Below the pieces are notes generated by a model that worked only from the letters and a program-made list of their open reading frames with translations, ran no database searches and was not told the DNA's origin. Source: a virus (taxonomy: Duplodnaviria; Heunggongvirae; Uroviricota; Caudoviricetes). From it: a stretch of 64,000 bases of DNA. Shown piece by piece: positions 27,080 to 51,815 of this stretch (positions within the stretch are counted from its first letter, which is position 1; each line of letters opens with the position of its first letter). A program made the translations under genes and the position numbers. Location of the stretch: IMG/VR virus record IMGVR_UViG_3300012344_000014, positions 42,581 to 106,580 of that record, one strand, 5' to 3'.

Positions 27080-27125
27080 CTTTCATATAATAAAGGGAAC
27101 ATTTTCATGCCCCCTTTTTCACATT
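27080..27125 (-). promoter_or_regulatory. conserved ~40-nt promoter-like element, copy 1 of 3, upstream of nrdH-nrdD-nrdG
   Basis: Minus-strand reading gtgaaaaagggggcatGAAAATGTTCCCTTTATTATatg. Near-identical copies at 32550-32600 and 51770-51815. Confidence 0.5.
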
Positions 27126-27627
27126 TGAAAAATTTTATTTTGAATAAGCCACGCGACGCCTACCGCAACCGCATCAGATTCGTCGTCGCAGGCGTAACGC
27201 TGAGGGCCGACATAATCCTCAAGCATCTCGGCCACGCGGTCTTTCTCCGCATTGGCGTCGCCGGTGACGATGCGCTTGGTCATGCGAGGATCGATCTCTT
27301 CAAACTCTCTGCCTGTCAAATGCCAGGCATAAAGATCGGCCACGCCGACAACCTTATGCAAAACCCCGATGGTCTTCATCTGATAGCGGCCGGGGTAAAT
27401 CGCTTTCTCTCGAACCAATATGGCGTCCGGATAAGCGGTCATATATCGCTTCTATTCGCGCGCAATCTCCAGAAGCATCTGGCCATGCGTTTTCTTGCGG
27501 GCATACTTGTTGTTGACATTGCTGAGCTCGCGCACGGTGATCGTATTATTCTCACAATGAAGCAGCGCAAAGCCGGGGCGATGGAGCGAGAGATCGCAGG
27601 CGAAGACATCGACGGCGGTTTCAGGCA
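27119..27627 (-). CDS. ruvC: RuvC-like Holliday-junction resolvase with in-frame TAG (27452-27454)
   Basis: N-terminal 'VDVFACDLSLHRPGFALL' (RuvC 'ILGIDPG..TG' equivalent) lies in ORF 27452-27889; C-terminal 'ESDAVAVGVAWL' lies in ORF 27119-27442. Same frame, separated only by TAG. GTG start with RBS gagggga. Coordinates +/-3. Confidence 0.6.
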
Positions 27628-27977
27628 CAGGGCGTCCCCTCGCTTTCACGCGCCAGCTTATCCGTCTCATAGGCGAAGAGCGCGCGGACAATGGCGTGCG
27701 CCAGATGATCATCGCTGATATCGCCGGCAAGATAAGCGTACAGATGTTGGATGCAATGCCCGATATGCTCCTCGGGCGGGATTTTTGTATAGTTACGGCA
27801 GGCGAAGGTTTCGCCGTATTTCTCAGCACCGGCCTTCGCGACTTCAGCCGCGGCAAACATTGCATGCACGGGCAGAAGCTGGAAAGCATAAGGGCTGCGG
27901 CTTTGCTTGCCGCCTTCGCTGTTCACGACGACGGGGACGTCTTTACCGACCCCGAAGATTACATTATCGCCAAGCAT
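27621..27977 (-). CDS. hypothetical protein (118 aa)
   Basis: ORF track; coupled to downstream genes. No firm family assignment. Confidence 0.5.
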   Translation of the reverse strand: MLGDNVIFGVGKDVPVVVNSEGGKQSRSPYAFQLLPVHAMFAAAEVAKAGAEKYGETFACRNYTKIPPEEHIGHCIQHLYAYLAGDISDDHLAHAIVRALFAYETDKLARESEGTPCA

Positions 27978-27986
27978 TTTATCACC

Positions 27987-28709
27987 TCAGAAATCAATAA
28001 AATCATGATACAGAAAACGGGTGCGGGGCGGCACGCGGCGATCAAGATGCCAATGCCCGCAGAACCATTCAGGCTCGAGCGCGGCGGCGTCTACCTCGTC
28101 CATCCAGCGTTCCATGGTATAATCGGGAGGGCCTCCATAAATATTGGGAGCGCATCGATCCCACGGAATCATGCTCTGGGGGCAGGTATGGGAGAGGATA
28201 ACATCGGGGCGATGGACGCGCGCGGTTTCCAGAATAGAATCTCTTTCAGGTTTTGAAAGCTGCTCATCAGGGAACCAGCGATATTGCGGGAACCCCTGCG
28301 CCTGACGCTCGAGCCGGATAAACTTATCGATGCTGTAAGCGCCGCCGATCACCATGACGCTCGTGCCGCTGAAATCATACAGGCCGCCGTCTTTCGCATA
28401 GAGAATATTTGGAAACTCATCCTCGACGAGCACAGGGCCTGAAAGATAAGAACTGACATAGTCTTCCTCGCGGCAGACTTTGCGGCTGGGGCGCTGATCA
28501 TGGTTGCCGCGAACCATAAAGAACGTCAGCGGCAAAGCGGCGAGCTCGGCCTTGAGTTTTCTATCCCGCTTACCGCCAAAGTAATTCACCCCGTTATCGC
28601 CAAGCACAACCATGAGATCTCCGCCGGCGTCTTTGCCGACGTCGTGAGACTCGCAGAAGAGTTCGACGGAACTATAATCGCCGTGTTTATCGCCGGTAAG
28701 CCAGATCAT
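27987..28709 (-). CDS. metallophosphoesterase (calcineurin-like Ser/Thr phosphatase family)
   Basis: 'GDKHGD', 'GDNG', 'GNHD' motifs. ATG at 28709 overlaps the upstream TGA. Confidence 0.75.
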   Translation of the reverse strand: MIWLTGDKHGDYSSVELFCESHDVGKDAGGDLMVVLGDNGVNYFGGKRDRKLKAELAALPLTFFMVRGNHDQRPSRKVCREEDYVSSYLSGPVLVEDEFPNILYAKDGGLYDFSGTSVMVIGGAYSIDKFIRLERQAQGFPQYRWFPDEQLSKPERDSILETARVHRPDVILSHTCPQSMIPWDRCAPNIYGGPPDYTMERWMDEVDAAALEPEWFCGHWHLDRRVPPRTRFLYHDFIDF

Positions 28710-29071
28710 TGCGTGCTCCTTTTTAATCTCTGCCCGCATTGCGGGCAATATCGATCGGTTCGTTTAACTTCGTTGGGGCAGGCGGGGCAGCGCAGTGTAT
28801 GAAGCTTGCGCCGCCCATCATCCATGGTTTGTTCCAGCGGAGGGAGGGGATTATCCCGGTTCTTGCGCCATTCAACCAGCTCGCTGGCGGGAACCAGTCG
28901 GAACTCTCCGCTCTCCCAATCAAAGCCGAGATAACCATGGGAAACTTCGACGCCCGCCGGAGGCCCCAACGCGGGGAAGCCCAGGGAAATGAGGACTTCC
29001 ACCTTGTCAGGGTCACACAGCGTACCCGCAACCGCCTGGCGCACAGCTTCGTTTAGCTGAGAAAGCGTCAT
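28706..29071 (-). CDS. hypothetical protein with C-terminal zinc ribbon
   Basis: 'CPACPNEVKRTDRYCPQCG'. Confidence 0.5.
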   Translation of the reverse strand: MTLSQLNEAVRQAVAGTLCDPDKVEVLISLGFPALGPPAGVEVSHGYLGFDWESGEFRLVPASELVEWRKNRDNPLPPLEQTMDDGRRKLHTLRCPACPNEVKRTDRYCPQCGQRLKRSTQ

Positions 29072-29349
29072 CTGCGGGCATCGGCGAGCGTCACGTCATA
29101 AGCGACGTCGTCCGGGATCTCCAGCGAGAGAAGCATCTTGTAAAGAGCGGCGAAATAAGCGGCGCGCGTGCGGCCGGCGTTAATCGCCTGCTTCATCTCC
29201 TCGGGCAGGTTTTCCTTCGGTTTCGGGGATTCCTTCACTCCCTCCGGCTTTGCCGGTTTCTCCGTCTTCAGGGAAGAGTCTGTTTTCGGCTCCTCCTTCT
29301 CCGCAAGAAAGTTGAGCAGATCCCACAGTTCTTTCATTTCGTTTGCCAT
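29068..29349 (-). CDS. hypothetical protein
   Basis: Likely start MANEMKELW (RBS aaagga); ORF track 29068-29445. Confidence 0.4.
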   Translation of the reverse strand: MANEMKELWDLLNFLAEKEEPKTDSSLKTEKPAKPEGVKESPKPKENLPEEMKQAINAGRTRAAYFAALYKMLLSLEIPDDVAYDVTLADARR

Positions 29350-29691
29350 AATTTCGAATCCTTTCACCATATTTAATATCAATCCATGCGCGCAGGAACG
29401 TGCCTGCAACGCAGACCGTGACGGCCAGCACCCACGCGGCCACATAGGAAACCCAGTGCGTCAATATCCAGATGAGCGCGGTAAGTACCGCCGCCCCAAG
29501 AAAAACGCCAAGGAAATCAATCAACATCTACATTACATCACCACCTCGGAAGAGAATGATTATCATCGTCAGGGAAAAAATAGGCAAGCGCGATACCGGA
29601 AATAAGGAAGAGCGCCGCAGCCCATGGAGGCAGCCCTAATTCCGCAAACCGTCTATATACGACGCCTGCCATAAAACCAACTGTAAACATA

Positions 29692-30446: not shown

Positions 30447-31080
30447 AAATAACGGGAAACAGTTTCTGGAATTCGCAAAGCAACGGGCGCATGAGCGAGC
30501 GCATTTCCGGATAAGCGGCCGACGAGGTGCGCAGCTGAAAAATATGCCGCCATTCCCGCAGGTTTGCCTTCATGACGATGATGCAGGCGGTAGAATTGGG
30601 GAGCACCTTGCGCGCGTCTTCCGCCTTCATGCCGCACTCATACCTGAGATACCGGTAATAAGTTTCGGCATGCTCCATGGACGCATCCCAGCCGCGGGAA
30701 GCGCACCATGTTTTCGCATCCAGATCGGGGCCTTCGGCTGGAAGATAGATATCCGGCCGGATGAAGCTGATATCTCCGGTCTTATCATCTTCGACATAGC
30801 GCTGGCTCTGAACGCAGAAACTGGGGAGCCGGTGCCGTGTGATCTCGGCCAGGACATCGCGCCCGGTGACGAGCTCAACCATGGCGTCGCCAAACTCAAT
30901 AGGGGCTTCATGCCCCCGCTTTATAAGCCCGCCAAGAAACTTGCGCCAGCTATCGGCCGTGATTTTATCATGCGAGCGATAGCAATTACGGGCGGCGTAT
31001 TCGATAAGGCGCAGCGTTTCCAGTGCGCGCTCCGGCGTGGACGGCGAGAGAATCTTAAAAGACTGGTTAATTACCTTCAT
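30412..31080 (-). CDS. thyX: flavin-dependent thymidylate synthase
   Basis: ThyX motif 'RHRLPSFCVQSQRY'. RBS ggagga then ATG at 31080; the ORF track N-terminal extension is spurious. Confidence 0.85.
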   Translation of the reverse strand: MKVINQSFKILSPSTPERALETLRLIEYAARNCYRSHDKITADSWRKFLGGLIKRGHEAPIEFGDAMVELVTGRDVLAEITRHRLPSFCVQSQRYVEDDKTGDISFIRPDIYLPAEGPDLDAKTWCASRGWDASMEHAETYYRYLRYECGMKAEDARKVLPNSTACIIVMKANLREWRHIFQLRTSSAAYPEMRSLMRPLLCEFQKLFPVIFDDITWEEKNA

Positions 31081-31444
31081 CGAAGGTTGATTCCTCCTTT
31101 CCTTCTTCATTATTAATGAGGGAATCCGCCTCGACGCCGTCCGTGTTTTCAGGATCGGTTTCAGCGTATTCGCTATCCCGATCATAGAGGTTGCCGCGCA
31201 TATCGCCGTTGAGGCGCATGAGCAGCGTTTCAAACCGGAGAGAGGAGAGCATAACGGTGCCCTCGTTAAAGAGAATGACGGAGCGGATTTTGCGCCCGAC
31301 CGTCGCATCCAAGAGATGCTTACGGCCTTTGGCAGCTTTGACCTATTCTTTCGAAGTCATGGTGCGCGGGTTAAGAACGGCAATGACATGATTGGCGCAG
31401 ACGGCATGCTTCAGGCCAGCGTTGACAAAGCGCAGTTCTTCCAT
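31067..31444 (-). CDS. RemA/DUF370-like small regulatory protein with in-frame TAG (31343-31345)
   Basis: MEELRFVNAGLKHAVCANHVIAVLNPRTMTSKE-TAG-VKAAKGRKHLLDATVGRKIRSVILFNEGTVMLSSLRFETLL... aligns with B. subtilis RemA ([64 protein letters not shown]). TAG falls at RemA Met/Leu. Confidence 0.55.
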
Positions 31445-32527
31445 TTATTCTTCACCTCCAAGGAGATATTGTTCGAGGATGTCGGTAAGGTTTGCAAAAT
31501 TGAAGCCGGTGCCGCCGCCGAAATTGGGCATCAGCTGGCCGTTCCATTTTTCGATCATCTGCTGCTGGATTACAAGCTCGCTCAAGCCGGCCTTGCTGGC
31601 TTCCAATTCAGCCTTGGTGGCTTCGGCGGCATCCAGCCTGGCCTGCTTATCAGCCGCGGCACGGGTCTTGATCACATAGGCTTCGTTATCCACACGGATC
31701 TTTTCAGCCTCGGCGGACGCCTGTGCGTTGATCAGCGCGACAGCCTGATCGCTTTCCGCCTTGATGCGTTCCTGCTCGGCTTTCTGTTCGGCCTGTTTGA
31801 CGGCGACGTCGTATTCGGTTTGCGCGGAAATTTTTTCTTTCTGTTGGCGCAGTTCGGTGTTGGTGAGTTCAGCGCTGAGGCGGGCACGCTCCTCAAGAAT
31901 GGCAGTATACTCCGGCGTAAAATCGTACGTCTTCATGTTGACGCGGAGAATATTGATACCGTACGGTTTCGTGATCTCATCCAGCCGCTCGGCGATCTGC
32001 GCGGGAATTGCTTCCTTATTATTGACGATATCCTCGCTATCATAAAGGGAGAAGACCTGTTTGATAATCGCCAGAGCGTTGGACTCGACCAGGACACCGG
32101 TGTAATTCTTGCCATAGTTGGTATATACATCGTAAGACTTTTCCGGCGCGAGCTGATGCTGAATCTCGAACTCAAAGACAGGCACGAGCTGACGATCTTT
32201 TGTTTCGGCGGTATCAGACGTGGTCGGCTTCGAAGTGCCGCTGGCGATGCGCAGGGTTTGTACCTGATTAGAAATCAGATCAAGCGAATCGACAAACGGG
32301 ATTTTAAGAAACCAGCCTTCTGACACGCCTTCCTTCTGAACAACTCCCGCCCGACGCAGTACGCCGGTATGGTTATACGGAACGACTCCCACTGCGTTGA
32401 CGCTAAGTACAAGCACAAGAAGCGCGCAGGCGGCGATAAGAATTATTTTTTTGATACGTCGAGATCGGATGCGCTCACGCTCGGCGGCCATATCTTCCAC
32501 CGTTTTGCGCCAATTTCTTGTTTCCAT
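31445..32527 (-). CDS. SPFH/band-7 (prohibitin/HflKC-like) membrane protein
   Basis: N-terminal TM, SPFH core, and long coiled-coil C-terminus. Confidence 0.8.
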   Translation of the reverse strand: METRNWRKTVEDMAAERERIRSRRIKKIILIAACALLVLVLSVNAVGVVPYNHTGVLRRAGVVQKEGVSEGWFLKIPFVDSLDLISNQVQTLRIASGTSKPTTSDTAETKDRQLVPVFEFEIQHQLAPEKSYDVYTNYGKNYTGVLVESNALAIIKQVFSLYDSEDIVNNKEAIPAQIAERLDEITKPYGINILRVNMKTYDFTPEYTAILEERARLSAELTNTELRQQKEKISAQTEYDVAVKQAEQKAEQERIKAESDQAVALINAQASAEAEKIRVDNEAYVIKTRAAADKQARLDAAEATKAELEASKAGLSELVIQQQMIEKWNGQLMPNFGGGTGFNFANLTDILEQYLLGGEE

Positions 32528-32549
32528 AACAGAACCCCTTTCAAAATTT

Positions 32550-32600
32550 TCTTTTCATATAATAAAGGGAACATTTTTCACCCCGCTTTTTCAGTTTGAG
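32550..32600 (-). promoter_or_regulatory. conserved promoter-like element, copy 2, upstream of the SPFH operon
   Basis: Minus reading ctgaaaaagcggggtgaAAAATGTTCCCTTTATTATatg. Confidence 0.5.
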
Positions 32601-35600
32601 CGGGCGAAACAGAAATTTTTTTGTAGCCGTCCATCCAAAGCTCAGTCACGCCGGGCTTGACAGAACGTTTGCCATCCTGATACTGATAGGCGGGCTTCTT
32701 CTGCCAGCCAAGGAGCTTGATGACGTCGCCGGCCTTAACGGGATCTTTAGCGAAATCAGGCTTGCGAATTTTCATCACACCGGTGTCTCCGGTGGAGACG
32801 CTATAGAGCTTCAGCTTGGGGCTATATTTCTCATCCACATCAATGACGGCGTAGCAGCCCTTCTTTTCGGGATAGACGCTGAGGGGCGCGCCGAAATAGT
32901 CGCACTCGAAGGGAATGATTTCCTCCATGGGGAGATCTTCATCCGGCAGGGAAGACTCCAGATCGCGCAGGACGGCGAGACGTTTCTGCTGCGTCTTCTC
33001 GACGAGCCCTTTATAGAACCGGTTCTCGCCGGACTTGAACTCCTGAAAGAGCTTGAGCAGTTTGGCGGAGCCGCCGAAATCGCTGAAGTATCCCATCTTG
33101 ATGAGCGCGGTGATGCTGGTGGCGTCGAACGCCGGAGACATATCCATATCGTAAAGCAGATCGGTGAAGTAAAGATACAGCGTATCGCGCATTTTATAGA
33201 GCGCGTCGGCGACTTTTCTACTGACGTGCTTGACGGAGGTGAGCGCGTCGGCGATGGTGTGCGCGCTTTCATCGATAAAGAAATCGCGGTTATCCTGCCC
33301 GAACTTGCAAGCGACGACGCGGATGCCGAACGCCCGACGCATTTCCTCCTTGGCTTTGGCGATGCGGTCTTTATCCTTCTTGGCGGCGTAGGCGCGAAGC
33401 AGGGTGGTGTAATACTGATAAGGATAGTGCGCCTTGAGCCATGCGCCGTAAAGACTATCCAGCGCGACGCAGGTGGCATGCGATGCATTAAAAAGATAGG
33501 AGCAGGAATCGTTGATGATCTGCCAGATTTTATCGGTGGTGGCGAGAGCTTCGGCCTCAGTGACATGCTCCTCCTCCACGATGCGCTGAGAGAACGTGGC
33601 GCGGAACTTTTCCTTGAGAGCGAGCACCTTTTCGGGATGCTTCTTCGAGATGGCCTTGATGGCGGCATAGGATTCAGCCCCAGTGAAACCGCCATGCTGT
33701 AGGACTTTCATGATCTGCTCCTGAAACATGAGGAAGCTGTCGGGAATTTCTTTCGTCTGAAGCAGGTTATCCAGCGAGGGGATACCATAATCGAAATGCC
33801 GGCGGGCGAGGAATGTATCGATCATCGACTTGAAGCCCGGGCGGATGGCGGCGACGAACGCGGCCAGCTCGGTAATATTGCGCGGCTTATAGCGGGCGAC
33901 CTTTTCAGTGGCCTTCTCGCGCTCAACCTGATTGAGCCCCATGGTATAGCCTTTGGCGTACATATCCCAGACTGGATCATCCGGCGGGCACATGGCGAGC
34001 AGTTCGTTAACAGAGGGGAGGGGGATATTGGCGGCCTTGTAGGCGGCGGCGTTGATGTTGACGACGGTGACGGAAAGAAGATCGTTTTTTAGATATCCGT
34101 ATCGATCCGCTGTCGCCCCGTCGATAAAAGCGGCATAAATAGTTCCCTTCTTGCCGGTTTTGCTATTGATACGATAAAGCCCAATTTCCCGGCGGATATC
34201 CTGATCGGTCAGAAGATAGGAACAGGGGCTGGGGGAGATGGAATCGACCATGCCAAGATATTTATTGGACATGCGCAGCTGCTCATGATACTCCTTGGGC
34301 ACGTAATCGAACGGATCGATGGCTTCGCGGTCTTCATCGTCTTCGGCGTATTTTACATCAAGCTCATACTTTTTCAAGCTGTCAGAGATGGCGTTAGCCG
34401 TTTCGAAGGCGACGTTGGTAGAACGGCAATACATCTTCCAGGCGGAAAGCCGTTTGAGCGTGCCAAAGGCGACCATCTGCGCGCTATGCCACTCGCCCAT
34501 GACCTCGGCCTGCGCTTTTTCAAACACCTCAACGTTGCCGCAGTTCAGATCCAAATCCGGCATCTGACCGGTGCTCAGGCGCTCTTTGGAAATAAACCGG
34601 TCGGGGTACATGGTGACGGGCATCTTCAAGCGATCAACGGAGGAGAAGCCGAGAAGCATATTCGTCAGGAAACTGACGCCGCTATTATGGACGACCATAT
34701 GATTAAGTAAGTAGCTGTGTGAATTTTCGATATGCAGATCGTAGACTTTGCACTTCTGCCGAGGTAGAAGATTGATTCCAGTAACTGGAATAAGCCAGTA
34801 CTTGTCGTTTTCAGATATTTTGCGTGACATCCCATAAGGAGTTGAATAAACGGGAATAACCCATTTATATGAGGTTTTGCAGTTATAACCGCGTTTATCA
34901 AACCAACGATCTCGCACTGTAAGCCGCGGCGGCTTCTCTCCAGCTTTCATACAAAGAATATTAAAGGCGTTCATCAAGGAAGGAGATGTATTGTCAAAGC
35001 ATTTACGATCCGATTCAGCAAAACAGCCATCGGTACGCATAAGCCCCGATAAAAAAGCTTTTGATTTCTCGTTATCAAGAAGCAAAATCTCATCGGGGAC
35101 AACTTTATCGTTTCCCTTTTTTGAAATGAAATACGTACAGCCAAGATATTTAGCAAAGGAAGAAGCATGCAGGGTAAGTTGAACCAATTTTTTATTTTTA
35201 GCTTTCGCTTCATAAATAGTTCCGCCAACCCGCGATGCCATAGTCTCAAAGATTTTGCGATTGTAAATATTTTTTTCGTTCTCCGCATTGATGGCAATAC
35301 CACAGACATAACTGCCGTCGTTTCTATGTCGAACCCAGCCGTCTCCATACATCATACCAAGGAATTCGTAATAGAGCGCGTCTTTAACGACCCATCTGCT
35401 CATCAACCGAAAACAAGTATCCTTATATTTTTGCGTAAGCGCTTCTTGAGTATCAACACCATAATAATCGAGTATTTCTCTTTTTGCTTTATTGAGATAT
35501 ACCCCAGGGCCACGACGAACTTCCGCGGAAGTTCGCCCAACAACAAAATTGTATAACGCTGAACGGGAGATGTGGAATTTTTTCATCAGGATTTCCCAGC

Positions 35601-37089
35601 CAAACGCTTCGCGCATCATGTCTTTGCGTAATTCAAAAATATGATCTCCGTCAAATATAGAGGCTCTGCTAATGTATTTGCTGAGATCAACCACTTCGGC
35701 AGTTTGTGAGGCCGGCTGAACAATCTTCGGAATACAAAGCAAATCCCCTTTCTTCAGCCGCGATGCTTCCACCCAGTCATAAGAGCCGTTCAACCGGCAA
35801 ACGAGAACACGATGATCCAACGTACATGTAGGATAAGAGCCAAACATCTTATTCGCCGGAGCCTGAATTTCAACAAGGGGTTCGTCAATATCATAAGAGA
35901 AGGTTTCAATTACTTTTTGATAATCCCCATCCTTATCAATTACAACGTCTCCAGGAGCCACTTGCGAAATTTGTTTCAGCCCGGTCAGTGTTGGCACACG
36001 CGCAGTGTCGGTGAAACAGCCCCTTCCAGATTGGGTTAACACCCCGCCTTCCCGCTTGGCAGTATCGACAACGCGGTTATCAATAAGAAAATAATCCGAA
36101 GTGTTGGTACCGGTAACGGCGTCTGTCTCATACCGGATCGCTTCTTCGTATTCCGGCCAGCGCTCCTGCGGCACTTCAGCTTTATACTGATCCCACGCCT
36201 GATGTACAAGGTCGAGATATTTTTGATTGCGCTCTTCCTGCGTCATGTCGGGATAAGCCGCGGGGAGCTTGCGGCGTTTACCAAACGAGACATCCTCAAA
36301 ATCCAGGAAGACGTTTGTGTTTTCCATCGCTTCATTAATCTGGGCGACGGACAGAACGCCCTGCGCCTTGAACCTGTCGAGCAAATGCTTTTCAGAGGGA
36401 TAATCCATATCCCAACCCTCTTCATCTTCATATTTAAGATGATGGGACTCAAGCAGCTGATCGCGCAGTTTGGAATCCTCCGGGTAAATGAAATGGGAAT
36501 CGGTTGCGGCAATGAGCGGGATATTATACTTGCGATAAAGATCGAGCACGAGCCGGTTGACATCCTTCTGCTTATCGACGTTATGCGCCTGAACCTCGAG
36601 CATGAAGCTGCCGCGGAAATGATCGTTCAAGAGCGTAACGAGCCGTTCGGCCTCCTCCGCGCCGTACTTCCAAATACCGCCGACGCAGGCTGTGGTAACG
36701 AATACATCCTTCGGATCGAGGGCCATGAGCAGATCCAGATCGACGCGGGGGCGATAGTAATAGCCGGTGATATTCGCTTCGGAGAGCGCATAATTCAAAT
36801 CGCCGACGCCTTTGCGCGTCTTCGCTGCCAGAATGAGATGGCAGTTGGATTTGTCTTTTTCGAAGCGGTCCTTGACGAAATAGGCTTCGGTAACATAGCG
36901 CCACTTCAGGCCATACTTTTCAGCTAGCTCGGCGCACTCCCAATAGTTGCCCTGCGTGCCATGGTTACAGGAGGAAAGAACCGTCTGGTTCAGTTCGACG
37001 GCGCGCCTGGCGTAATCCTCCATGGTGGCGACGCTGTCGGCAAGCATGATATTGGAGATGTGATCATGTTTATGATAATTGACGTACAT
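32578..37089 (-). CDS. dnaE: DNA polymerase III alpha subunit (DnaE-type, PHP domain) interrupted by an intein
   Basis: PHP start 'MYVNYHKHDH', palm and fingers motifs. 'GRG|S' extein junction split by a 445-aa insertion. RBS ggaggt then ATG at 37089; the ORF-track N-terminal 135 aa is spurious. Confidence 0.9.
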   Translation of the reverse strand: MYVNYHKHDHISNIMLADSVATMEDYARRAVELNQTVLSSCNHGTQGNYWECAELAEKYGLKWRYVTEAYFVKDRFEKDKSNCHLILAAKTRKGVGDLNYALSEANITGYYYRPRVDLDLLMALDPKDVFVTTACVGGIWKYGAEEAERLVTLLNDHFRGSFMLEVQAHNVDKQKDVNRLVLDLYRKYNIPLIAATDSHFIYPEDSKLRDQLLESHHLKYEDEEGWDMDYPSEKHLLDRFKAQGVLSVAQINEAMENTNVFLDFEDVSFGKRRKLPAAYPDMTQEERNQKYLDLVHQAWDQYKAEVPQERWPEYEEAIRYETDAVTGTNTSDYFLIDNRVVDTAKREGGVLTQSGRGCFTDTARVPTLTGLKQISQVAPGDVVIDKDGDYQKVIETFSYDIDEPLVEIQAPANKMFGSYPTCTLDHRVLVCRLNGSYDWVEASRLKKGDLLCIPKIVQPASQTAEVVDLSKYISRASIFDGDHIFELRKDMMREAFGWEILMKKFHISRSALYNFVVGRTSAEVRRGPGVYLNKAKREILDYYGVDTQEALTQKYKDTCFRLMSRWVVKDALYYEFLGMMYGDGWVRHRNDGSYVCGIAINAENEKNIYNRKIFETMASRVGGTIYEAKAKNKKLVQLTLHASSFAKYLGCTYFISKKGNDKVVPDEILLLDNEKSKAFLSGLMRTDGCFAESDRKCFDNTSPSLMNAFNILCMKAGEKPPRLTVRDRWFDKRGYNCKTSYKWVIPVYSTPYGMSRKISENDKYWLIPVTGINLLPRQKCKVYDLHIENSHSYLLNHMVVHNSGVSFLTNMLLGFSSVDRLKMPVTMYPDRFISKERLSTGQMPDLDLNCGNVEVFEKAQAEVMGEWHSAQMVAFGTLKRLSAWKMYCRSTNVAFETANAISDSLKKYELDVKYAEDDEDREAIDPFDYVPKEYHEQLRMSNKYLGMVDSISPSPCSYLLTDQDIRREIGLYRINSKTGKKGTIYAAFIDGATADRYGYLKNDLLSVTVVNINAAAYKAANIPLPSVNELLAMCPPDDPVWDMYAKGYTMGLNQVEREKATEKVARYKPRNITELAAFVAAIRPGFKSMIDTFLARRHFDYGIPSLDNLLQTKEIPDSFLMFQEQIMKVLQHGGFTGAESYAAIKAISKKHPEKVLALKEKFRATFSQRIVEEEHVTEAEALATTDKIWQIINDSCSYLFNASHATCVALDSLYGAWLKAHYPYQYYTTLLRAYAAKKDKDRIAKAKEEMRRAFGIRVVACKFGQDNRDFFIDESAHTIADALTSVKHVSRKVADALYKMRDTLYLYFTDLLYDMDMSPAFDATSITALIKMGYFSDFGGSAKLLKLFQEFKSGENRFYKGLVEKTQQKRLAVLRDLESSLPDEDLPMEEIIPFECDYFGAPLSVYPEKKGCYAVIDVDEKYSPKLKLYSVSTGDTGVMKIRKPDFAKDPVKAGDVIKLLGWQKKPAYQYQDGKRSVKPGVTELWMDGYKKISVSPAQTEKAG
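34684..36018 (-). mobile_element. full-length intein with LAGLIDADG homing endonuclease in dnaE
   Basis: Begins 'CFTDTARVPTL' after GRG and ends 'LNHMVVHN' before Ser. Two LAGLIDADG motifs ('LGMMYGDGW', 'LSGLMRTDGCF'). Confidence 0.75.
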
Positions 37090-37104
37090 AATACCTCCAC
37101 CCCT

Positions 37105-37133
37105 TGTTATTTCAAATGAGACATGATATACTT
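37105..37133 (+). promoter_or_regulatory. sigma70-like promoter (TTGTTA-17-TATACT) for the + strand island
   Basis: ttgtta at 37105 and tatact at 37128. Confidence 0.5.
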
Positions 37134-37165
37134 TGTTTATAATGCACGAAAGGATTTGAACGACA

Positions 37166-40535: not shown

Positions 40536-40550
40536 ATCAATTTCCTCCTG

Positions 40551-42198: not shown

Positions 42199-42201
42199 AA
42201 A

Positions 42202-43064: not shown

Positions 43065-43931
43065 CTCCAATATCTCCTCGCAGAGGGGGCAGGAATTCAG
43101 CACGCCGCAGATCCACCGGCAGAAATACTTATCTTTATGCGGCCTCCAATCAAACTCAAAGAGAATTTTCTCGATCGTATCGACGACCCAGGCCATGGCG
43201 GCGTTATATGCGGCCGCGTCGAACGGTTCATCAATGAAGGTGCCATCCCGGAACATGTTGAAGCGCAGCCGGGCGGGGAAAACGCCGAATTTCTGCTTGA
43301 CAAACGCGGCGTAAACATAGAGCTGCTTGCGATAAGTATCCAGTTCCTTTTTCATGGAGCTCATGGACTTGGATTTATGATCGATGACCTCAATTTCGCC
43401 GGTTTCGCGATTTTTGAGCACCAAGTCGGCGATTCCAACGAAAGGATAACCGCCGATTTCAATTTCGAACCGCTCTTCAGCGGCCAGAATATCATATTGA
43501 TCACCGAAGCCGGAGAAAGTCTCGAAATATTCAAGGCCAGCGTCGTAATATTTCTGCGGCATGCCTTTGGGGAACGGGGGGAAGGAGTGCTGAAGCGCCT
43601 GATCATATCCTTCCTCATACTCGGACGCCATAAGAAAGTCGGGGAGCTCGCCCTTCGCCCATTTTTCCAGAATTTCATGACAGTGCGTACCGTATTCGGC
43701 GAAGGCGTTATTCTCATTGGGGACGCGATCGATATACTGGAGTTTATAAGCCAGAGGACATTGTTCAAAGGTTGCCAGACGGGAAAAAGACCACTTGGTT
43801 TCGGGAGGAATAGCGGCATCACCTCGATGGATATGGTATAATGGCTCTGCGCAGACAACGCCGAGCCAAGCCTTTATAAAAAGGAAGGTGTAACGACTGG
43901 ACACGGAGCGCCCTGCAAGGGGCGAAGGCAC
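43059..43931 (-). CDS. PD-(D/E)XK nuclease, Cas4/RecB-like, with C-terminal Cys cluster
   Basis: '...IADLVLKNRETGEIEVIDHKSK...QLYVY' nuclease core and 'CRWICGVLNSCPLC' Fe-S-like Cys cluster. Confidence 0.7.
   Translation of the reverse strand: MPSPLAGRSVSSRYTFLFIKAWLGVVCAEPLYHIHRGDAAIPPETKWSFSRLATFEQCPLAYKLQYIDRVPNENNAFAEYGTHCHEILEKWAKGELPDFLMASEYEEGYDQALQHSFPPFPKGMPQKYYDAGLEYFETFSGFGDQYDILAAEERFEIEIGGYPFVGIADLVLKNRETGEIEVIDHKSKSMSSMKKELDTYRKQLYVYAAFVKQKFGVFPARLRFNMFRDGTFIDEPFDAAAYNAAMAWVVDTIEKILFEFDWRPHKDKYFCRWICGVLNSCPLCEEILER
43825..43842 (+). promoter_or_regulatory. extended -10 promoter (TGgTATAAT) driving a structured ~190-nt leader and small ORF
   Basis: ggatatggtataatgg at 43831-43844. 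Confidence 0.45.
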
Positions 43932-44036
43932 AGTCTGAACTTACGGGCGACTGTAAGAGCCGCAAGGCCCCGCAGACAACAAGGCGGGTAACAAATTGCG
44001 AAAGCCGGTGGGAGAATTTGGAGGTTTATCGAAAGA

Positions 44037-44378
44037 ATGTCAATTTTAATTTCATAGGCGTTGTCCTATTGGTTGCAAGTCATAGGAAACTATGACGGAT
44101 TGGTTCACTTGTTCCCGACCGCCGCGGCGACCCCGCCGGGCAGATTGTTGCTGATGGCAATCGCTATCGCGCTTGTCGTCTTTATGGTACTGTACGACCG
44201 ACCCCACCATGAATGGTCAAAAATGATGGCCCCATACCGCGGTAACGCGGTATTTGGAATCTCCGTAAATTCGGCGAACGTCTGCGCGTTCCCGTTACAC
44301 CTTCGGGGGGGAATGTTTTATTTATCAGCCTTCAGCGCGGTGACGGCGGCCAGCTTTCGGGCTTCCTCTTCGATATAA
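44037..44378 (+). CDS. small hydrophobic protein, family copy A (conserved core NYDGLVHLFPTAAATPPGRLLLMAIAIALVVF); in-frame TAG at 44055-44057
   Basis: RBS ggagg. Paralogue of 61206-61442 with mostly synonymous differences in the core. The 3' extent is uncertain: a hairpin terminator lies at ~44237-44262. Confidence 0.35.
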
Positions 44379-44872: not shown

Positions 44873-45131
44873 GTCCTTTCATTCGAATATCACGGAGGTG
44901 ACCACGGAAAGCGTATTCGGAAACATGGAGCAGGGTTTTAAGCTGGTCGCGGGTATATTCCCCACCAAAGCCCTTGTAGAGATGGCGGATAAACCACTCA
45001 TAAACATAAGAGCGGCACCCGTCCGGGTCGCGATAATATTTGCATGCGCTACAGTTTCTGCTATGCCGGTCGAAGCAACCGAGCATCAATGTGGAGACGA
45101 CCCCACGATCCCATCTGCGATACCTAGCCAT
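44853..45131 (-). CDS. hypothetical Cys-containing protein (92 aa)
   Basis: ORF track. Confidence 0.4.
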   Translation of the reverse strand: MARYRRWDRGVVSTLMLGCFDRHSRNCSACKYYRDPDGCRSYVYEWFIRHLYKGFGGEYTRDQLKTLLHVSEYAFRGHLRDIRMKGLDTYDE

Positions 45132-45688
45132 TGTTTTCCCTCCATTAATTTTGTCCGAATTCGCGCGCCCGTTTCCGCGACGCGCTGCTGAACGCGTTGG
45201 CGGCTGAGCCCGAGCTCGTCACCGAGCGACTGACAGGTTTTGCCACCTATATGATAACACAGATACAGCCGCGCCGCATCCTCGCCGACAATGGATTTCA
45301 TATAAGAAACGATGCGCTGCGCATCCATAAAGGCGTCTGCATCGGTGATACAGCGCTGATCGCCGGGGAGATAATAGTCGATCATCATATCGGAAAGAAA
45401 ACCGACGCCACTCTCTGGTTTACGGGACTGCGTGTTATTATACGCGTTAAGATGGGAGAGCTCGCTGCGAACCTGGTGCCAGAGATAAGTCGACCAGGCG
45501 CATTTGCCGGGGACATAGCTCTGCACGGCGCGAACCGCAACAAGATGGACGAGTCCAAGCGAATCATCGAACCCCAAATCCCGTCGATAACGCGCAAGCT
45601 TTGAAGCATAGAGGACAAGCAGCCCATAATTCCGCTCGAGGAAGGCGCGCTGCGCATCAGTGAGCGGCGGACAAATTTTCTTTCTCAT
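45086..45688 (-). CDS. sigma-70-family RNA polymerase sigma factor (regions 2 and 4)
   Basis: Region-4 HTH 'CQSLGDELGLSRQRVQQRVAETGARIRTKL'. Confidence 0.75.
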   Translation of the reverse strand: MRKKICPPLTDAQRAFLERNYGLLVLYASKLARYRRDLGFDDSLGLVHLVAVRAVQSYVPGKCAWSTYLWHQVRSELSHLNAYNNTQSRKPESGVGFLSDMMIDYYLPGDQRCITDADAFMDAQRIVSYMKSIVGEDAARLYLCYHIGGKTCQSLGDELGLSRQRVQQRVAETGARIRTKLMEGKQWLGIADGIVGSSPH

Positions 45689-47517: not shown

Positions 47518-47518
47518 A

Positions 47519-48028: not shown

Positions 48029-48029
48029 A

Positions 48030-49544: not shown

Positions 49545-49555
49545 TGAAACCTCTT

Positions 49556-50107
49556 TCAGGCGGCGAACGCCGCATATTTTTTTCGGATACGCTGCAGGGT
49601 GCGCATGGCCGTAGCATCGCCAAAGCCGGCGGCACGCCCCGCATCGCGCGTGGTGGCACCGTTCATTTTCTGCTGGACAAGTATTCTTTCAGGCTTGGAA
49701 AGGGTGCCGAGGAAGATATCGAAATCAGCCTGTGTCTCGATATCTTCCGCAGTAGAGCCTTCTTTGGCATAATAATCCAGCCCATCGAACATAATCGACG
49801 AATCAACGGGATAGGAAATGGTTTTTGTGAAATCAGTCGTGCGCTTGGGGATATGGACGACATTCATCTCCATCAGGTAGCGGCACATTGCGTTCGTCAT
49901 ATCAAGAAGCGGGGCTTTGCGCGCCGTTTCGATATCGGGGCTGCGGCGGATATGCTCCAGCATAACAATGGACGCTTCCTGAAAGAGATCCTCCGCGCAG
50001 GCGCTATAATTTTTGTCATTGCGGCGTCTAAACTGATGGACAGCTGACCAGACCAGATTTATACAGGAACGAAAAATCTGGTCTTCCTGACCGGGAGAAA
50101 GATTCAT
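49556..50107 (-). CDS. second sigma-70-family sigma factor
   Basis: Region 2-like N-terminus and C-terminal HTH 'TTRDAGRAAGFGDATAMRTLQRIRKK'. Confidence 0.65.
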   Translation of the reverse strand: MNLSPGQEDQIFRSCINLVWSAVHQFRRRNDKNYSACAEDLFQEASIVMLEHIRRSPDIETARKAPLLDMTNAMCRYLMEMNVVHIPKRTTDFTKTISYPVDSSIMFDGLDYYAKEGSTAEDIETQADFDIFLGTLSKPERILVQQKMNGATTRDAGRAAGFGDATAMRTLQRIRKKYAAFAA

Positions 50108-50185
50108 TTGGCATCCTTTCTGCCAGCAGCCTGATATAAACGTTTTCTATGGGCGATTTACGAAATTACGGGATGAGGAGAAAAA

Positions 50186-50689
50186 TTAAAAGGGAAGATC
50201 ATCCTCATTGAAACGATTGGCGGGAGCGGCAGCGGGCGCAACAGGAGGCTGCACAGCGTAATTATTATAAGCGGGGACGGGCTGGGCGGGGGCATAAGCC
50301 GGAGCGGGCGGAGCGTATCCGTAAGGCTGGGGCTGAGGCTGAACTGGTGCGGCGGCCTGCGCATCCTTCTTAGATGAGAGGAACTGCACCTTGCCGGCAC
50401 GAAGCTCGAGGGAGAATTTCATTGTGCCGTCGCGCCCCTGATAGGAACGGACGCTCGGCTCGCCATCACAATAGACGGGATCACCCTTATGGAGATACTT
50501 GGCGCAGGCGTCTGCCTGCTTGCCCCAGACGGCGACGCGATAAAAGGTCGCGGCTTTTTCTTCGCCGTTGCGGGGCTGATAATCGGGGTCAACGGCCACG
50601 TTAAAGTTGGTGACCATATTTTCGCCGACCATACGGTTTTCAGGATCAGCCGTGAGACGGCCGATGATTTCAGTTCTATGAAGACTCAA
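50186..50689 (-). CDS. ssb: single-stranded DNA-binding protein
   Basis: OB fold and C-terminal acidic tail '...DDLPF'. Confidence 0.9.
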   Translation of the reverse strand: MSLHRTEIIGRLTADPENRMVGENMVTNFNVAVDPDYQPRNGEEKAATFYRVAVWGKQADACAKYLHKGDPVYCDGEPSVRSYQGRDGTMKFSLELRAGKVQFLSSKKDAQAAAPVQPQPQPYGYAPPAPAYAPAQPVPAYNNYAVQPPVAPAAAPANRFNEDDLPF

Positions 50690-50706
50690 TGCTTTTCCTC
50701 CCTTTC

Positions 50707-51741
50707 TCAGGCGGCAAACGCGGCGTAAAGCGCGTCGAGCGTAGCCTGATCTTTAATGGTACGATAATTCGCGGTGCCGCCGGTGATCGATTTGACTTTT
50801 GCCAGCAAATCGGCGCGTTCCATCGTTTTTGAAGCGGCCTTGATAGCAGCATCTACCATTTCCGGCGTGACAGCCGAAGCGGGGATGGGAGCGGGCGGCT
50901 CGCTGAAGGGGAGCTGCGATTCATCCATCGGGGATGCGGCGGCGGGCATCGGCTCGGAAACGGGAGCCTTTACGGCGCGCTCAATAGGCGCCGTTGCGGC
51001 TTCCGGCTTTGCGCCGGCCAGCCAACCGTGAATCTTCGCGCCGACTTCAGGCGTGATGACGAAATACTGGCCGTCGAACAGGCGGGTACGATCCTTCGTG
51101 GCGCATGCCTGATGCGCCTGATCAAGCTCGAAGAAGGTGGTGACTTCATATTCCAGACCATCGCGGAACTGAATGCCCATACCCTTCTGGACGACCTTCT
51201 TGCGCCCGTTTTCCTCTTCCATAGCGTACTCTTTCTTGGAGCGCGCAGTGATGATGACGTGCATATCACACTGAAGGATTTTATCAATGAGCTTATTGTG
51301 CAGCGGAGTCACATCCCGCCAGGCGGTGTAGCTGTTGCCGCTGCGCTTGGCCGCGTTGGCCTGCATTTCAAGCAAGCCGCCTTCGCCCGTCCATGCATGA
51401 GTGAGCGAATCGATAATGAGGAATTCCATGCCGGCGCGTTGTGCTTCGTCAATCGCGTCAATGTATTTCTGGGGCCCGAAGGGCGGAGTGATATCAATTT
51501 TGCAGAACTCTCCGATTCGCACATTGCCGACCTGCTCATCGACGAACAGATTGGCGGAGCGGTTTTCGGTATCGACGACGCAGATTCTATCCCAAACCTG
51601 CGCGTCCGGCCAATCGGGATGGTCTGCGTGGACAAGACCATAGGCGAGCAGGAGAGAGCTCATCGTTTTGCCGCTGCCGGAGATGCCGCCGATGCCAAGC
51701 TTGATGCGTACCTGCGATTTTCTCGCTTTACTGATTGCCAA
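50707..51741 (-). CDS. RecA-like AAA_24 ATPase (Sak4-like recombination/annealing-associated)
   Basis: Walker A 'GIGGISGSGKTMSSL'. TTG start with RBS gaaggggg. Confidence 0.7.
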   Translation of the reverse strand: MAISKARKSQVRIKLGIGGISGSGKTMSSLLLAYGLVHADHPDWPDAQVWDRICVVDTENRSANLFVDEQVGNVRIGEFCKIDITPPFGPQKYIDAIDEAQRAGMEFLIIDSLTHAWTGEGGLLEMQANAAKRSGNSYTAWRDVTPLHNKLIDKILQCDMHVIITARSKKEYAMEEENGRKKVVQKGMGIQFRDGLEYEVTTFFELDQAHQACATKDRTRLFDGQYFVITPEVGAKIHGWLAGAKPEAATAPIERAVKAPVSEPMPAAASPMDESQLPFSEPPAPIPASAVTPEMVDAAIKAASKTMERADLLAKVKSITGGTANYRTIKDQATLDALYAAFAA

Positions 51742-51769
51742 GGTAAAATACCCCCTTCTCGAATTTTGT

Positions 51770-51815
51770 TTTTCAATAATAAAGGGAACATTTTCGGCAC
51801 CGTTTTTTCACTTTT
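51770..51815 (-). promoter_or_regulatory. conserved promoter-like element, copy 3, upstream of the Sak4-like operon
   Basis: Minus reading gtgaaaaaacggtgccGAAAATGTTCCCTTTATTATtga. Confidence 0.5.

What the first reader, a model, noticed from the sequence alone, without database searches (positions are those of the whole stretch)
27080..51815. Three copies of a ~40-nt conserved element immediately upstream of minus-strand operons, plus two phage sigma factors
The consensus on the minus strand is GTGAAAAAnnGGnGnnn(n)GAAAATGTTCCCTTTATTAT. Copies lie at 27080-27125 (nrdH operon), 32550-32600 (SPFH operon) and 51770-51815 (sak4-ssb operon). The spacing and sequence do not fit a canonical sigma70 -35/-10. 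The phage encodes two sigma-70-family factors (45086-45688 and 49556-50107), so these are good candidates for phage-sigma-dependent middle promoters, or a shared operator.
Basis: seen in the sequence. Interest (0 to 1): 0.6.

Follow-up and report, generated by a model that had tools for sequence, protein, structure and literature searches.

The report
Phage-lineage promoter-like element, four copies
A sharply conserved 31-base two-part DNA signal sits in front of four early or middle gene blocks of an uncultivated gut Clostridia phage; it is most likely the promoter read by one of the phage's own two sigma factors, which is a familiar kind of phage gene control.

Summary
Three exact copies lie in the window and a fourth lies about 40 nt beyond its end. 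All four are intergenic or overlap the upstream gene's stop codon. All face the downstream gene, 26-38 nt from its start codon.

Relatives 65-93% identical in the smaller sigma protein refine the consensus to TGAAAAA-N10-AAATGTTCCCTTTA. The spacer has fixed length but variable sequence. Canonical TTGACA-17-TATAAT promoters do occur elsewhere in the same phage.

Both proposed sigma genes are confirmed as very divergent two-domain sigma-70/ECF-like proteins. One motif copy heads the operon that contains both, in every lineage that shows that junction.

Best explanation, confidence about 0.5: a phage-sigma-dependent, autoregulated promoter class with ECF-like geometry. No computation links either sigma to the motif, and "middle" timing is not shown.

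The same module also occurs in a prophage inserted in spoVT and in a small primase-integrase element of one Clostridia MAG.

Side findings: TAG is read as glutamine, and a conserved LexA-like box precedes the early sigma-A promoter upstream of copy 3.

It is a new member of a known kind, of moderate interest.

The parts
27087..27122 (-). Copy 1. Box A TGAAAAA 27115-27121, N10 spacer 27105-27114, box B AAATGTTCCCTTTA 27091-27104, then TTAT. The TGA stop of the upstream RuvC-like gene lies in box A. An A/T tract lies upstream, about 27123-27146.
   Evidence: the orthologous copy in relative k141_124078 is at L068 15135-15165
32559..32594 (-). Copy 2. Box A 32587-32593 lies inside the 3' end of the dnaE coding sequence. 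The dnaE TGA stop at 32578-32580 lies at the spacer/core boundary. Box B is 32563-32576, then TTAT.
   Evidence: orthologous copy at L068 9876-9906
51776..51811 (-). Copy 3. Box A 51804-51810, box B 51780-51793, then TTAT. An A/T-rich UP-like tract lies at 51812-51843, directly after the stop of the tyrosine recombinase gene.
   Evidence: conserved at the int|sak4 junction in L060, L061, L062, L064 and L065-L067
63717..63998 (-). First gene (93 aa) downstream of copy 4. Copy 4 itself lies about 40-70 nt beyond the window end (L056 9436-9466, GTGAAAAAACAGGGGCTCAAATGTTCCCTTTATTAT).
49556..50107 (-). sigma2: a 183-aa divergent two-domain sigma-70/ECF-like protein. It is the third gene of the operon headed by copy 3.
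45086..45688 (-). sigma1: a 200-aa divergent sigma-70-family protein. Its start overlaps the stop of the primase-helicase gene.
   Evidence: the L060 orthologue has a precomputed PF04545 hit
50707..51741 (-). Sak4-like AAA_24 gene, first gene after copy 3. SSB follows at 50186-50689.
31445..32527 (-). SPFH/Band_7 gene, first gene after copy 2. It is followed by a RemA-like gene (starts 31444, in-frame TAG) and then Thy1.
26852..27064 (-). Glutaredoxin-like CPxC gene with an in-frame TAG at codon 23, first gene after copy 1. NrdD follows at 24534-26855.
53189..53239 (-). Canonical sigma-A promoter (TTGACA-17-TATCAT, 53189-53217) with a GAAC-N4-GTTC LexA-like box (53228-53239). It heads the RHH, 73-aa and tyrosine-recombinase genes, which run into copy 3. 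It is the inferred source of the first sigma2 transcripts.

Best explanation
The element is a promoter class specific to this phage lineage. It is recognised by host core RNA polymerase carrying a phage-encoded ECF-like sigma factor. The better candidate is sigma2 (49556-50107), because it is the more conserved of the two; sigma1 is not excluded.

In this reading box A (TGAAAAA) acts as the -35 element. The left part of box B (TGTTCC/GTTCCC, 14-16 nt downstream of TGAAAA) acts as the -10 element. Transcription would start near the end of box B or just after it, giving leaders of about 20-40 nt that carry the ribosome-binding site.

Inferred cascade:
1. The conserved sigma-A promoter upstream of the RHH gene, which is preceded by a LexA-like box, fires first.
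2. Its transcript reads through the tyrosine-recombinase gene into sak4-ssb-sigma2.
3. The sigma then activates the four motif promoters. One of these heads its own operon, which gives positive autoregulation.
4. This switches on the replication, DNA-metabolism and nucleotide-synthesis blocks.

Shown: the anatomy of the motif, its conservation, the sigma identity of the two proteins, and their co-occurrence with the motif. Inferred: which sigma acts, the -35/-10 assignment, the start site, the read-through and the timing.
For: 1. All 4 genome copies are intergenic or overlap a stop codon. All are co-oriented with the downstream gene, and box B ends 26-38 nt from the start codon.
2. Across 13 distinct instances from about 6 lineages, box A (12 of 13) and box B (13 of 13) are invariant. 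The 10-nt spacer keeps its length but not its sequence. That is the signature of two contacts made by one protein at a fixed distance.
3. A relative with 68-83% protein identity keeps the element at all three orthologous junctions. The neighbouring non-coding DNA there falls to 0-47% identity.
4. No sigma-A -35 is present, and the TATTAT hexamer is lost in two lineages. The same phages keep textbook sigma-A promoters elsewhere, so the host sigma-A consensus is canonical.
5. Both sigma candidates are confirmed.
6. In every lineage that shows the junction, the motif heads the operon containing sigma2. Autoregulatory placement is typical of ECF sigmas (PMC5758882).
7. Box A resembles the B. subtilis sigma-W -35 element TGAAAC. 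ECF spacers are 14-17 bp, and ECF promoters 'adhere closely to consensus' (PMC5758882). This fits the absence of degenerate copies.
8. In copy 1 the ribosome-binding site starts about 10 nt after box B, so the start site and the -10 element must lie within or at box B.
9. No RNA polymerase gene appears among the genes annotated in the ~84 kb of the 112-kb contig that could be read.
Against: 1. There is no experimental or transcript evidence. No start site is known.
2. The ECF hallmark 'AAC' in the -35 element is AAA here, and there is no CGT-type -10 element.
3. Fourteen invariant contiguous bases is longer than a normal -10 element.
4. The 6-9 nt after box B change in concert within a genome, but no sigma2 residue tracks that change.
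5. The module also occurs in a spoVT-inserted prophage end (L003, L033) and in a small primase-integrase element (L013). No sigma homologue is visible in the 4-8 kb held for each. L013 lacks box A.
6. The sigma genes lie downstream of a motif copy, so a separate trigger is required. The proposed read-through is inferred only.
Confidence: 0.5

Rival explanations
1. The element is a host-holoenzyme promoter that needs a phage activator or sigma appropriation, as T4 MotA/AsiA middle promoters or phi29 p4 do. Alternatively it uses a host alternative sigma. Box B and/or box A would be the activator site replacing the -35 element. TATTAT, or the AAAAT block about 12 nt further downstream, would serve as the -10 element.
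For: - TATTAT is a 5/6 match to the -10 consensus in most lineages.
- A cAAAAT(t) block recurs 11-12 nt after box B in 10 of 13 instances.
- The module works in other mobile elements where no sigma gene is seen.
- A 325-aa multi-HTH protein is encoded immediately upstream of copy 4.
Against: - TATTAT is replaced by TAAGGG, TAAGAG or TAATAG (G at -7) in k141_124078 and L064.
- Copies 1 of both phages lack the downstream AAAAT block and have the ribosome-binding site there instead.
- Exact-19-mer scans of 185,579 species genomes found the element only in mobile elements. This ascertainment would miss degenerate host copies.
Confidence: 0.2
2. The element is an operator: a binding site for a phage repressor or regulator (the RHH protein 52917-53162, the RemA-like protein, or the 325-aa HTH protein) that gates read-through or overlapping promoters at module boundaries.
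For: - The sequence is invariant and occurs at several operon heads, as expected for a single high-specificity DNA-binding protein.
- RHH and RemA-like genes are conserved in the relatives.
Against: - Box A and box B have no dyad or direct-repeat symmetry, and the second 'TGAAAA' is not conserved.
- RHH dimers normally need repeated half-sites (general knowledge).
- RemA binds poorly conserved repetitive regions (PMC8481266).
- An operator alone does not explain the fixed distance to the start codon or the upstream A/T tract.
Confidence: 0.1
3. The element acts at the RNA level. Box B (UUCCCUUU) mimics the anti-Shine-Dalgarno sequence and pairs with the downstream AAGGGGG/AAGGAGG ribosome-binding site on read-through transcripts, or marks a processing site.
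For: The MFE fold of copy 3 pairs AAAAUGUUCCCUUU with AAGGGGGUAUUUU, and copy 2 pairs CCCUUU with AAAGGGG.
Against: - No common fold exists across copies. The z-scores are -1.9, -1.1, -3.3 and +1.4, and copies 1 and 4 pair box B with the upstream spacer instead.
- Box A lies 10 nt upstream at fixed distance with a non-complementary, variable spacer.
- There is no Rfam match.
- Any C/U-rich run pairs with a Shine-Dalgarno sequence.
Confidence: 0.05
4. The element is a DNA-level site for recombination, replication or packaging, for example a target of the adjacent tyrosine or serine recombinases.
For: Copy 3 lies next to a tyrosine recombinase gene. The L003/L033 copy lies upstream of a serine recombinase, and L013 carries an integrase.
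Against: - Four direct copies in one genome would delete 5-37 kb of essential genes if they recombined.
- The copies precede unrelated genes and always face the gene.
- More distant spoVT-inserted elements with the same recombinase family lack the element.
Confidence: 0.03

Closest known systems
Phage-encoded sigma cascades of Firmicutes phages (Bacillus phage SPO1 gp28 middle and gp33/34 late promoters; from general knowledge)
   Same: - The phage carries its own small sigma-70-family proteins.
- A distinct, phage-specific bipartite promoter replaces the host -35/-10 in front of DNA-replication and later gene blocks.
- Host sigma-A promoters serve the first genes.
   Different: - The sequences are unrelated (SPO1: AGGAGA...TTTNTTT and CGTTAGA...GATATT).
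- Here the sigma genes sit inside an operon headed by the motif, which suggests autoregulation.
- The phage appears temperate, with recombinases and a LexA-like box.
- Nothing has been tested experimentally.
ECF sigma promoters, e.g. B. subtilis sigma-W TGAAAC-N16-CGTA (PMC5758882)
   Same: - The sigma is a two-domain sigma2+sigma4 protein.
- Box A TGAAAA(A) is a 5/6 match to TGAAAC.
- The spacer is fixed, and 14-17 nt reaches TGTTCC/TTCCCT.
- The promoters adhere very closely to consensus.
- A copy lies upstream of the sigma's own operon.
   Different: - The diagnostic C of 'AAC' is A.
- There is no CGT-type -10 element.
- The conserved downstream box is 14 nt long.
- No anti-sigma gene was identified.
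- The proteins score below the curated TIGR02937 cut-off.
T4 middle promoters (MotA box plus sigma-70 -10, with AsiA; from general knowledge)
   Same: - A conserved phage-specific box replaces the -35 element in front of middle genes.
- A host-type -10-like hexamer (TATTAT) is present in most copies.
   Different: - The -10-like hexamer is not conserved across lineages.
- A second upstream box lies at fixed distance.
- No MotA or AsiA homologue was detected.
- Sigma-family genes are present instead.
Helper-phage activators switching on satellite operons (SaPI operon I by phage LtrC/RinA-type sigma-like activators; P4 by P2 Ogr; from general knowledge)
   Same: The same promoter module is found on a large phage and on a small primase-integrase element (L013) and on another prophage (L003/L033) in one MAG.
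   Different: There is no evidence that these elements are satellites or that they lack their own sigma. Only 4-8 kb of each could be read.

Membership tests
Sigma-70 family / ECF-like sigma factors (the two proteins) | Full-length match to a sigma2+sigma4 profile | tested here: met
   TIGR02937 is matched over profile positions 1-165 (sigma1) and 4-160 (sigma2) of 165. Sigma1: E 7.7e-11. Sigma2: E 4.8e-6, with homologues to 6.3e-10.
Sigma-70 family / ECF-like sigma factors (the two proteins) | Score above the curated family cut-off | tested here: not met
   Sigma1 scores 41.9 bits and sigma2 26.3 bits against a TIGR02937 cut-off of 42.9. The Pfam Sigma70_r4 hit is 20.8 bits against 24.1, and sigma2 has no Pfam hit. 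Both are divergent members.
Sigma-70 family / ECF-like sigma factors (the two proteins) | Fold resembles solved sigma factors | tested here: met
   - Sigma2: the top-listed Foldseek PDB hits to the AF2 model (pLDDT 66) are almost all sigma-factor chains, e.g. Mtb SigL 6dv9_F at E 6.6e-4, SigH, S. aureus SigB and E. coli sigma-E. The alignments are full length. TM is about 0.3 because the orientation between the two domains is free.
- Sigma1: the profile hits WhiG (E 1.3e-6), RpoS and SigA.
- The sigma2 profile has no PDB sequence hit.
Sigma-70 family / ECF-like sigma factors (the two proteins) | Binds core RNA polymerase and directs initiation | not testable with these tools
   Needs biochemistry.
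Canonical sigma-A (sigma-70) promoter | TTGACA-like -35 hexamer 16-18 nt upstream of a TATAAT-like -10 hexamer | tested here: not met
   The consensus scan finds no site at any copy, but finds 11/12 sites at 53217, 55643 and 55974. The hexamer 17 nt upstream of TATTAT is G-rich and variable.
Canonical sigma-A (sigma-70) promoter | -10 hexamer with A at -11 and T at -7, conserved among orthologous copies | tested here: not met
   TATTAT is present in the window phage, L061, L065-L067, L003, L033 and L013. It is TAAGGG, TAAGAG or TAATAG in k141_124078 (L060, L068) and TAATAG in L064.
ECF-type promoter | 'AAC' in the -35 element | tested here: not met
   Box A is TGAAAAA, with AAA where sigma-W has AAC (consensus from PMC5758882).
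ECF-type promoter | Two conserved elements with a fixed 14-17 nt spacer, and close adherence to consensus | tested here: met
   The pattern TGAAAAA-N10-AAATGTTCCCTTTA is exact in 12 of the 78 loci (13 sites) and in all 3 window copies. No copy with 1-2 mismatches to AATGTTCCCTTTA lies at an intergenic junction; the one 2-mismatch match (L064 7486) is inside a coding region. Which bases form the -10 element is not determined.
ECF-type promoter | A copy upstream of the sigma factor's own operon | tested here: met
   Copy 3 heads sak4-ssb-sigma2-...-sigma1 in the window and in L060, L061, L062, L064 and L065-L067.
Operator of a dimeric repressor (RHH/HTH) | Dyad or direct-repeat half-sites | tested here: not met
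   Neither box is palindromic, and the second TGAAAA-like unit varies (TGAAAAT, CGAAAAT, TCAAAT, CCGAAAT).
Known structured RNA (Rfam 15) | Match at gathering score | tested here: not met
   No family matched anywhere in the 64-kb window, and the copies share no fold.
RemA-type activator region | Extended, poorly conserved repetitive DNA (PMC8481266) | tested here: not met
   The element is short and invariant. A RemA-like gene exists (starts 31444; Pfam E 1.1e-16 when TAG is read as Q), but the site type does not fit.

The most novel reading that the evidence does not exclude
The element is the read-out of a regulon shared across mobile elements. One phage sigma would switch on its own four operons. 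It would also switch on the recombinase operon of a spoVT-inserted prophage (L003/L033) and the primase gene of a small integrative element (L013) in the same host. Resident elements would then sense infection or induction by carrying the phage's promoter. The about 140-nt module is 88% identical between otherwise unrelated elements, and the identity stops exactly at the third codon.
Probability: 0.12. Interest if true: 0.65.

Novelty: new member of a known kind. Interest (0 to 1): 0.4.

Why it matters
The finding gives a precise, testable promoter definition (TGAAAAA-N10-AAATGTTCCCTTTA) and two candidate sigma factors for an uncultivated family of about 112-kb Clostridia gut phages that read TAG as an amino acid. 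If it is confirmed, it would supply an orthogonal sigma/promoter pair from anaerobic Firmicutes. It would also give a transcription map for a phage group with no cultured member: an SOS-controlled sigma-A promoter, then phage sigma promoters, then recoded late genes. Finally, it would provide a marker for tracing exchange of regulatory modules between phages, prophages and small integrative elements in spore-forming gut bacteria. As a mechanism it is an expected kind of phage control, so it would not surprise specialists.

Tried and rejected
- **Close relatives in INPHARED.** Megablast of 8 kb and blastn of the 181-nt module found nothing.
- **IMG/VR.** The 18-mer gave two unrelated hits. A Sak4-based locus search gave none.
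- **Exact 19-mer scans of genome and metagenome collections.** They returned 52 loci. Only L003, L013 and L033 proved related; the rest are chance or coding matches.
- **Known RNA or a conserved RNA fold.** Rejected.
- **Sporulation sigma consensus (F, G, E, K), sigma-H, sigma-D, sigma-54 and TcdR-type promoters.** I compared these from memory and found no convincing fit. They were not pursued.
- **LexA site inside box B.** Only a GTTC half-site is present, and the left half is not conserved.
- **Phased A-tracts or RemA wrapping.** The GAAAA units are spaced 13-14 and 21-23 nt, which is not helically phased, and upstream units vary.
- **Covariation of sigma2 residues with the lineage-specific segment after box B.** None was found.
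- **More distant SPFH-bearing phages (L069-L072) and more distant spoVT-inserted elements (L073-L078).** The motif is absent from both.
No candidate gene appears in the ~84 kb of the 112-kb contig that could be read.
- **Sigma1 and sigma2 as paralogues.** hhalign gives E 0.14, so no detectable similarity beyond region 4.
- **Whole-genome scan.** About 28 kb of the contig (record 84-112 kb) and its first 740 nt could not be fetched.

Full report
**1. The observation**

The 20-mer GAAAATGTTCCCTTTATTAT occurs three times on the minus strand: 27087-27106, 32559-32578 (one mismatch) and 51776-51795. None is expected by chance. Relaxed searches with up to 5 mismatches add no further copy in the window.

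Each copy lies just upstream of a minus-strand gene:
- Copy 1 precedes a glutaredoxin-like CPxC gene (ATG at 27064), followed by NrdD.
- Copy 2 precedes an SPFH/Band_7 gene (ATG at 32527).
- Copy 3 precedes a Sak4-like AAA_24 gene (TTG at 51741), followed by SSB.

The stop codons of the upstream genes lie inside the element in copies 1 and 2. These genes are a RuvC-like gene and a DnaE polymerase that carries an intein.

**2. Genome context**

The window is the reverse complement of 64 kb of a 112,235-bp contig (Logan SRR1747039_750). Reading 10 kb beyond each end of the window gave a fourth copy about 40 nt past position 64000 (L056 9436-9466). It sits upstream of the 93-aa gene 63717-63998. 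The fourth copy has TCAAATG where the others have GAAAATG.

All four copies face the same way as the roughly 58-kb block of early and middle genes on that strand. They head blocks of about 12, 19, 5.5 and at least 11 kb.

**3. Relatives and the conserved core**

The phage has no close relative in INPHARED or IMG/VR. The 183-aa protein 49556-50107 has four homologue clusters at 68-93% identity. Their contigs share one gene order: RHH, tyrosine recombinase, [element], Sak4, SSB, sigma2, DUF2828, primase-helicase, sigma1.

Aligning the recombinase|sak4 intergenic regions shows what is conserved. The invariant parts are [G/A]TGAAAAA, then ten bases of variable sequence, then AAATGTTCCCTTTA.

A second locus set came from the SPFH protein. 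In the relative k141_124078 (68-83% protein identity) the element also sits at the dnaE|SPFH and ruvC|glutaredoxin junctions (L068 9876-9906 and 15135-15165).

Across 13 distinct instances:
- Box B is 13 of 13 identical.
- Box A is present in 12 of 13.
- The spacer length never changes.
- An A/T-rich tract precedes box A.

Adjacent non-coding DNA at the same junctions drops to 0-47% identity. No degenerate copy exists at any other intergenic junction in the related DNA that was fetched; the single 2-mismatch match (L064 7486) lies inside a coding region.

**4. It is not a sigma-A promoter**

The consensus scan finds nothing at the copies. The 17-nt-upstream hexamer is G-rich and variable. The -10-like TATTAT is lost in two lineages.

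The same phages carry textbook sigma-A promoters:
- TTGACA-17-TATCAT at 53217-53189, conserved in four lineages.
- TTGACG-17-TATAAT at 55643.
- TTGACA-17-TATACT at 55974.

The host sigma-A consensus is therefore canonical, and the element is a different class.

**5. The sigma factors**

Sigma1 (45086-45688):
- It matches TIGR02937 (sigma70-ECF) end to end, E 7.7e-11, one bit under the curated cut-off.
- It has a weak Sigma70_r4 Pfam hit.
- As a five-sequence profile it hits solved sigma factors, with WhiG at E 1.3e-6, then RpoS and SigA.

Sigma2 (49556-50107):
- It has no Pfam hit and no PDB sequence hit.
- It matches TIGR02937 over its full length at E 4.8e-6; its homologues reach 6e-10.
- It matches PHROG sigma families at E 3.7e-6.
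- Its AlphaFold model (pLDDT 66, two helical domains joined by a disordered linker) retrieves only sigma factors from the PDB: Mtb SigL, SigH, S. aureus SigB and E. coli sigma-E.

The two proteins are not detectably similar to each other. Sigma2 is much more conserved among lineages (65-93% identity) than sigma1 (29-86%). This parallels the invariance of the element and is the only reason to prefer sigma2.

**6. Most likely mechanism**

Three features are what a sigma that contacts -35 and -10 elements produces:
- two invariant boxes at a fixed distance with a free spacer;
- an upstream A/T tract;
- a constant orientation and a constant short distance to the start codon.

Box A resembles the sigma-W -35 element TGAAAC. 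ECF spacers are 14-17 bp, which places the -10 element at TGTTCC/TTCCCT. ECF promoters adhere closely to consensus and typically include an autoregulatory copy (PMC5758882). Here copy 3 heads the operon that contains both sigma genes in every lineage.

In copy 1 of both phages the ribosome-binding site begins about 10 nt after box B. The start site must therefore lie at or just after box B.

The first sigma transcripts could come from the conserved sigma-A promoter upstream of the RHH gene. That promoter's operon runs into copy 3, and the scan shows no terminator-like hairpin in the gap between the recombinase stop and copy 3 (51742-51843).

The assignment of sigma2, the start site, the read-through and the 'middle' timing are all inferences.

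**7. Evidence that complicates the model**

- The ECF 'AAC' is AAA, and a 14-nt invariant box is longer than a -10 element.
- The bases after box B differ by lineage but agree among copies within a genome: TTAT four times in the window phage, and A[G/T][G/A]GTG three times in k141_124078. Yet no sigma2 position segregates with this.
- The element also occurs outside the family. L003 and L033 share with copy 3 only a stretch of about 110-140 nt (88% identity) that ends at the third codon. There it precedes a small ORF and a large serine recombinase at the end of a prophage inserted in spoVT.
- L013, from the same Clostridia MAG, has box B without box A. It lies upstream of an AEP primase in a small element with a tyrosine integrase next to host dnaB.
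- No sigma homologue is visible in the 4-8 kb held for these loci.
- More distant spoVT-inserted elements lack the motif. It is therefore a transferable regulatory module and not part of the recombinase gene.

These facts keep two other readings alive: a host-factor or activator model, and a cross-element regulon.

**8. Rivals**

- A sigma-A promoter helped by an activator is weakened by the loss of TATTAT in two lineages, and by the missing downstream AAAAT block in copy 1.
- An operator is weakened by the lack of symmetry. For RemA it is also weakened by that protein's known preference for poorly conserved repetitive DNA (PMC8481266).
- An RNA-level role has no common fold and no Rfam match.
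- A recombination site would delete essential genes.
- No phage RNA polymerase gene is present among the genes annotated in the ~84 kb of the contig that could be read.

**9. Side findings**

TAG is a sense codon in this phage.
- With TAA and TGA as the only stops, genes extend to ATG codons preceded by ribosome-binding sites.
- A paralogous repeat aligns TAG with CAG.
- The PAPS-reductase TAG is Q in the closest orthologue.
- RemA-like and RuvC Pfam profiles are matched end to end across the TAG when it is read as Q.
- No suppressor tRNA lies in the DNA that could be read.
- This fits published TAG-to-Gln recoding in gut phages (bioRxiv 10.1101/2021.08.26.457843; PMC9523058).

A GAAC-N4-GTTC box is conserved 10-12 nt upstream of the RHH promoter in four lineages. 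This suggests SOS control.

**10. Verdict**

The element is real, strongly selected and specific to this phage lineage. It is most probably a promoter dependent on a phage sigma factor. That is a new member of a known kind of control, and the interest is moderate.

Noticed in passing
window 2630-3811, 4548-5759, 8790-9608, 13747-14250 (+); 26852-27064, 27119-27889, about 31070-31444, 37460-37939, 42202-43116 (-): TAG is used as a sense codon, most likely Gln. In-frame TAGs often fall at codons 23-45 of late genes, and no confident gene ends in TAG. One TAG aligns with CAG in a paralogous repeat and another aligns with Q in the closest PAPS-reductase orthologue. RemA-like and RuvC Pfam profiles are matched end to end across the TAG. 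No suppressor tRNA lies in the window, L056 or L058.
   Followed up: partly
window 53189-53239 (-): A canonical sigma-A promoter (TTGACA-17-TATCAT) upstream of the RHH gene is preceded by a GAAC-N4-GTTC LexA/Cheo-like box. Both are conserved in L060, L061 and L064. This suggests that host LexA controls the early operon that runs into motif copy 3.
   Followed up: partly
window 15920-17605 (-) and 51844-52800 (-): The phage carries two recombinases. One is a large serine recombinase (Resolvase, Recombinase, Zn ribbon, DUF4368) at the end of the minus-strand arm. The other is a tyrosine recombinase between the RHH gene and copy 3.
   Followed up: partly
L003 968-3217; L033; L073-L078: Large serine recombinase genes are fused in frame to the 3' part of spoVT, giving products of about 720 aa with SpoVT_C. 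They occur in very many Clostridia assemblies (e.g. Anaerotruncus massiliensis), at the end of prophages or of about 7-kb mobilisable elements. The 57-aa AbrB-type 5' fragment of spoVT lies at the other end (L077 3180-3353). spoVT is thus a common insertion target.
   Followed up: partly
window 32578-37494 (-): The DnaE-type PolIII alpha gene (1638 aa) contains an intein. The NrdD of the relative k141_124078 also carries an intein (L068 15400-18192), and its dnaE is called in two pieces.
   Followed up: no
window 54012-55567 (-), promoters at 55643 and 55974: An AbiEii toxin gene and an upstream DUF6088 (AbiEi-like) gene lie behind their own canonical sigma-A promoters, inside the block between motif copies 4 and 3. 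They are probably defence genes expressed in the lysogen.
   Followed up: no
window 38881-40535 (-): PARP/WGR-domain and Macro-like genes sit next to the DNA ligase gene. This ADP-ribosylation pair is conserved in L060 and L061.
   Followed up: no
window 50108-50135 (-): The ssb-sigma2 intergenic region has a conserved block GGCTGC(T/C)GG(C/T)AGAAAGGA around the ribosome-binding site in all five lineages. It may form a GGCA...TGCC hairpin with the ribosome-binding site in the loop. It also has a GG-N10-GC pattern, but that lies too close to the ATG to act as a sigma-54 promoter.
   Followed up: no
window 7163-13505 (+): Several tail-fibre-like genes share repeated segments (families D1-D3, D5 and D7-D12), including collagen-like GxY repeats and a common C-terminal end.
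   Followed up: no
window 44072-44200 and 61241-61369: A 129-nt direct repeat (71% identity) joins a poorly coding region near 44.1 kb and the small ORF 61123-61410. It is unexplained.
   Followed up: no
L056 500-1110 (beyond the window end): A stretch of about 600 nt without ORFs precedes a sigma-A-like promoter (TTTACT-17-GATATAAT) and about 25 small co-oriented genes. It may be an origin or a leader region of the early arm.
   Followed up: no
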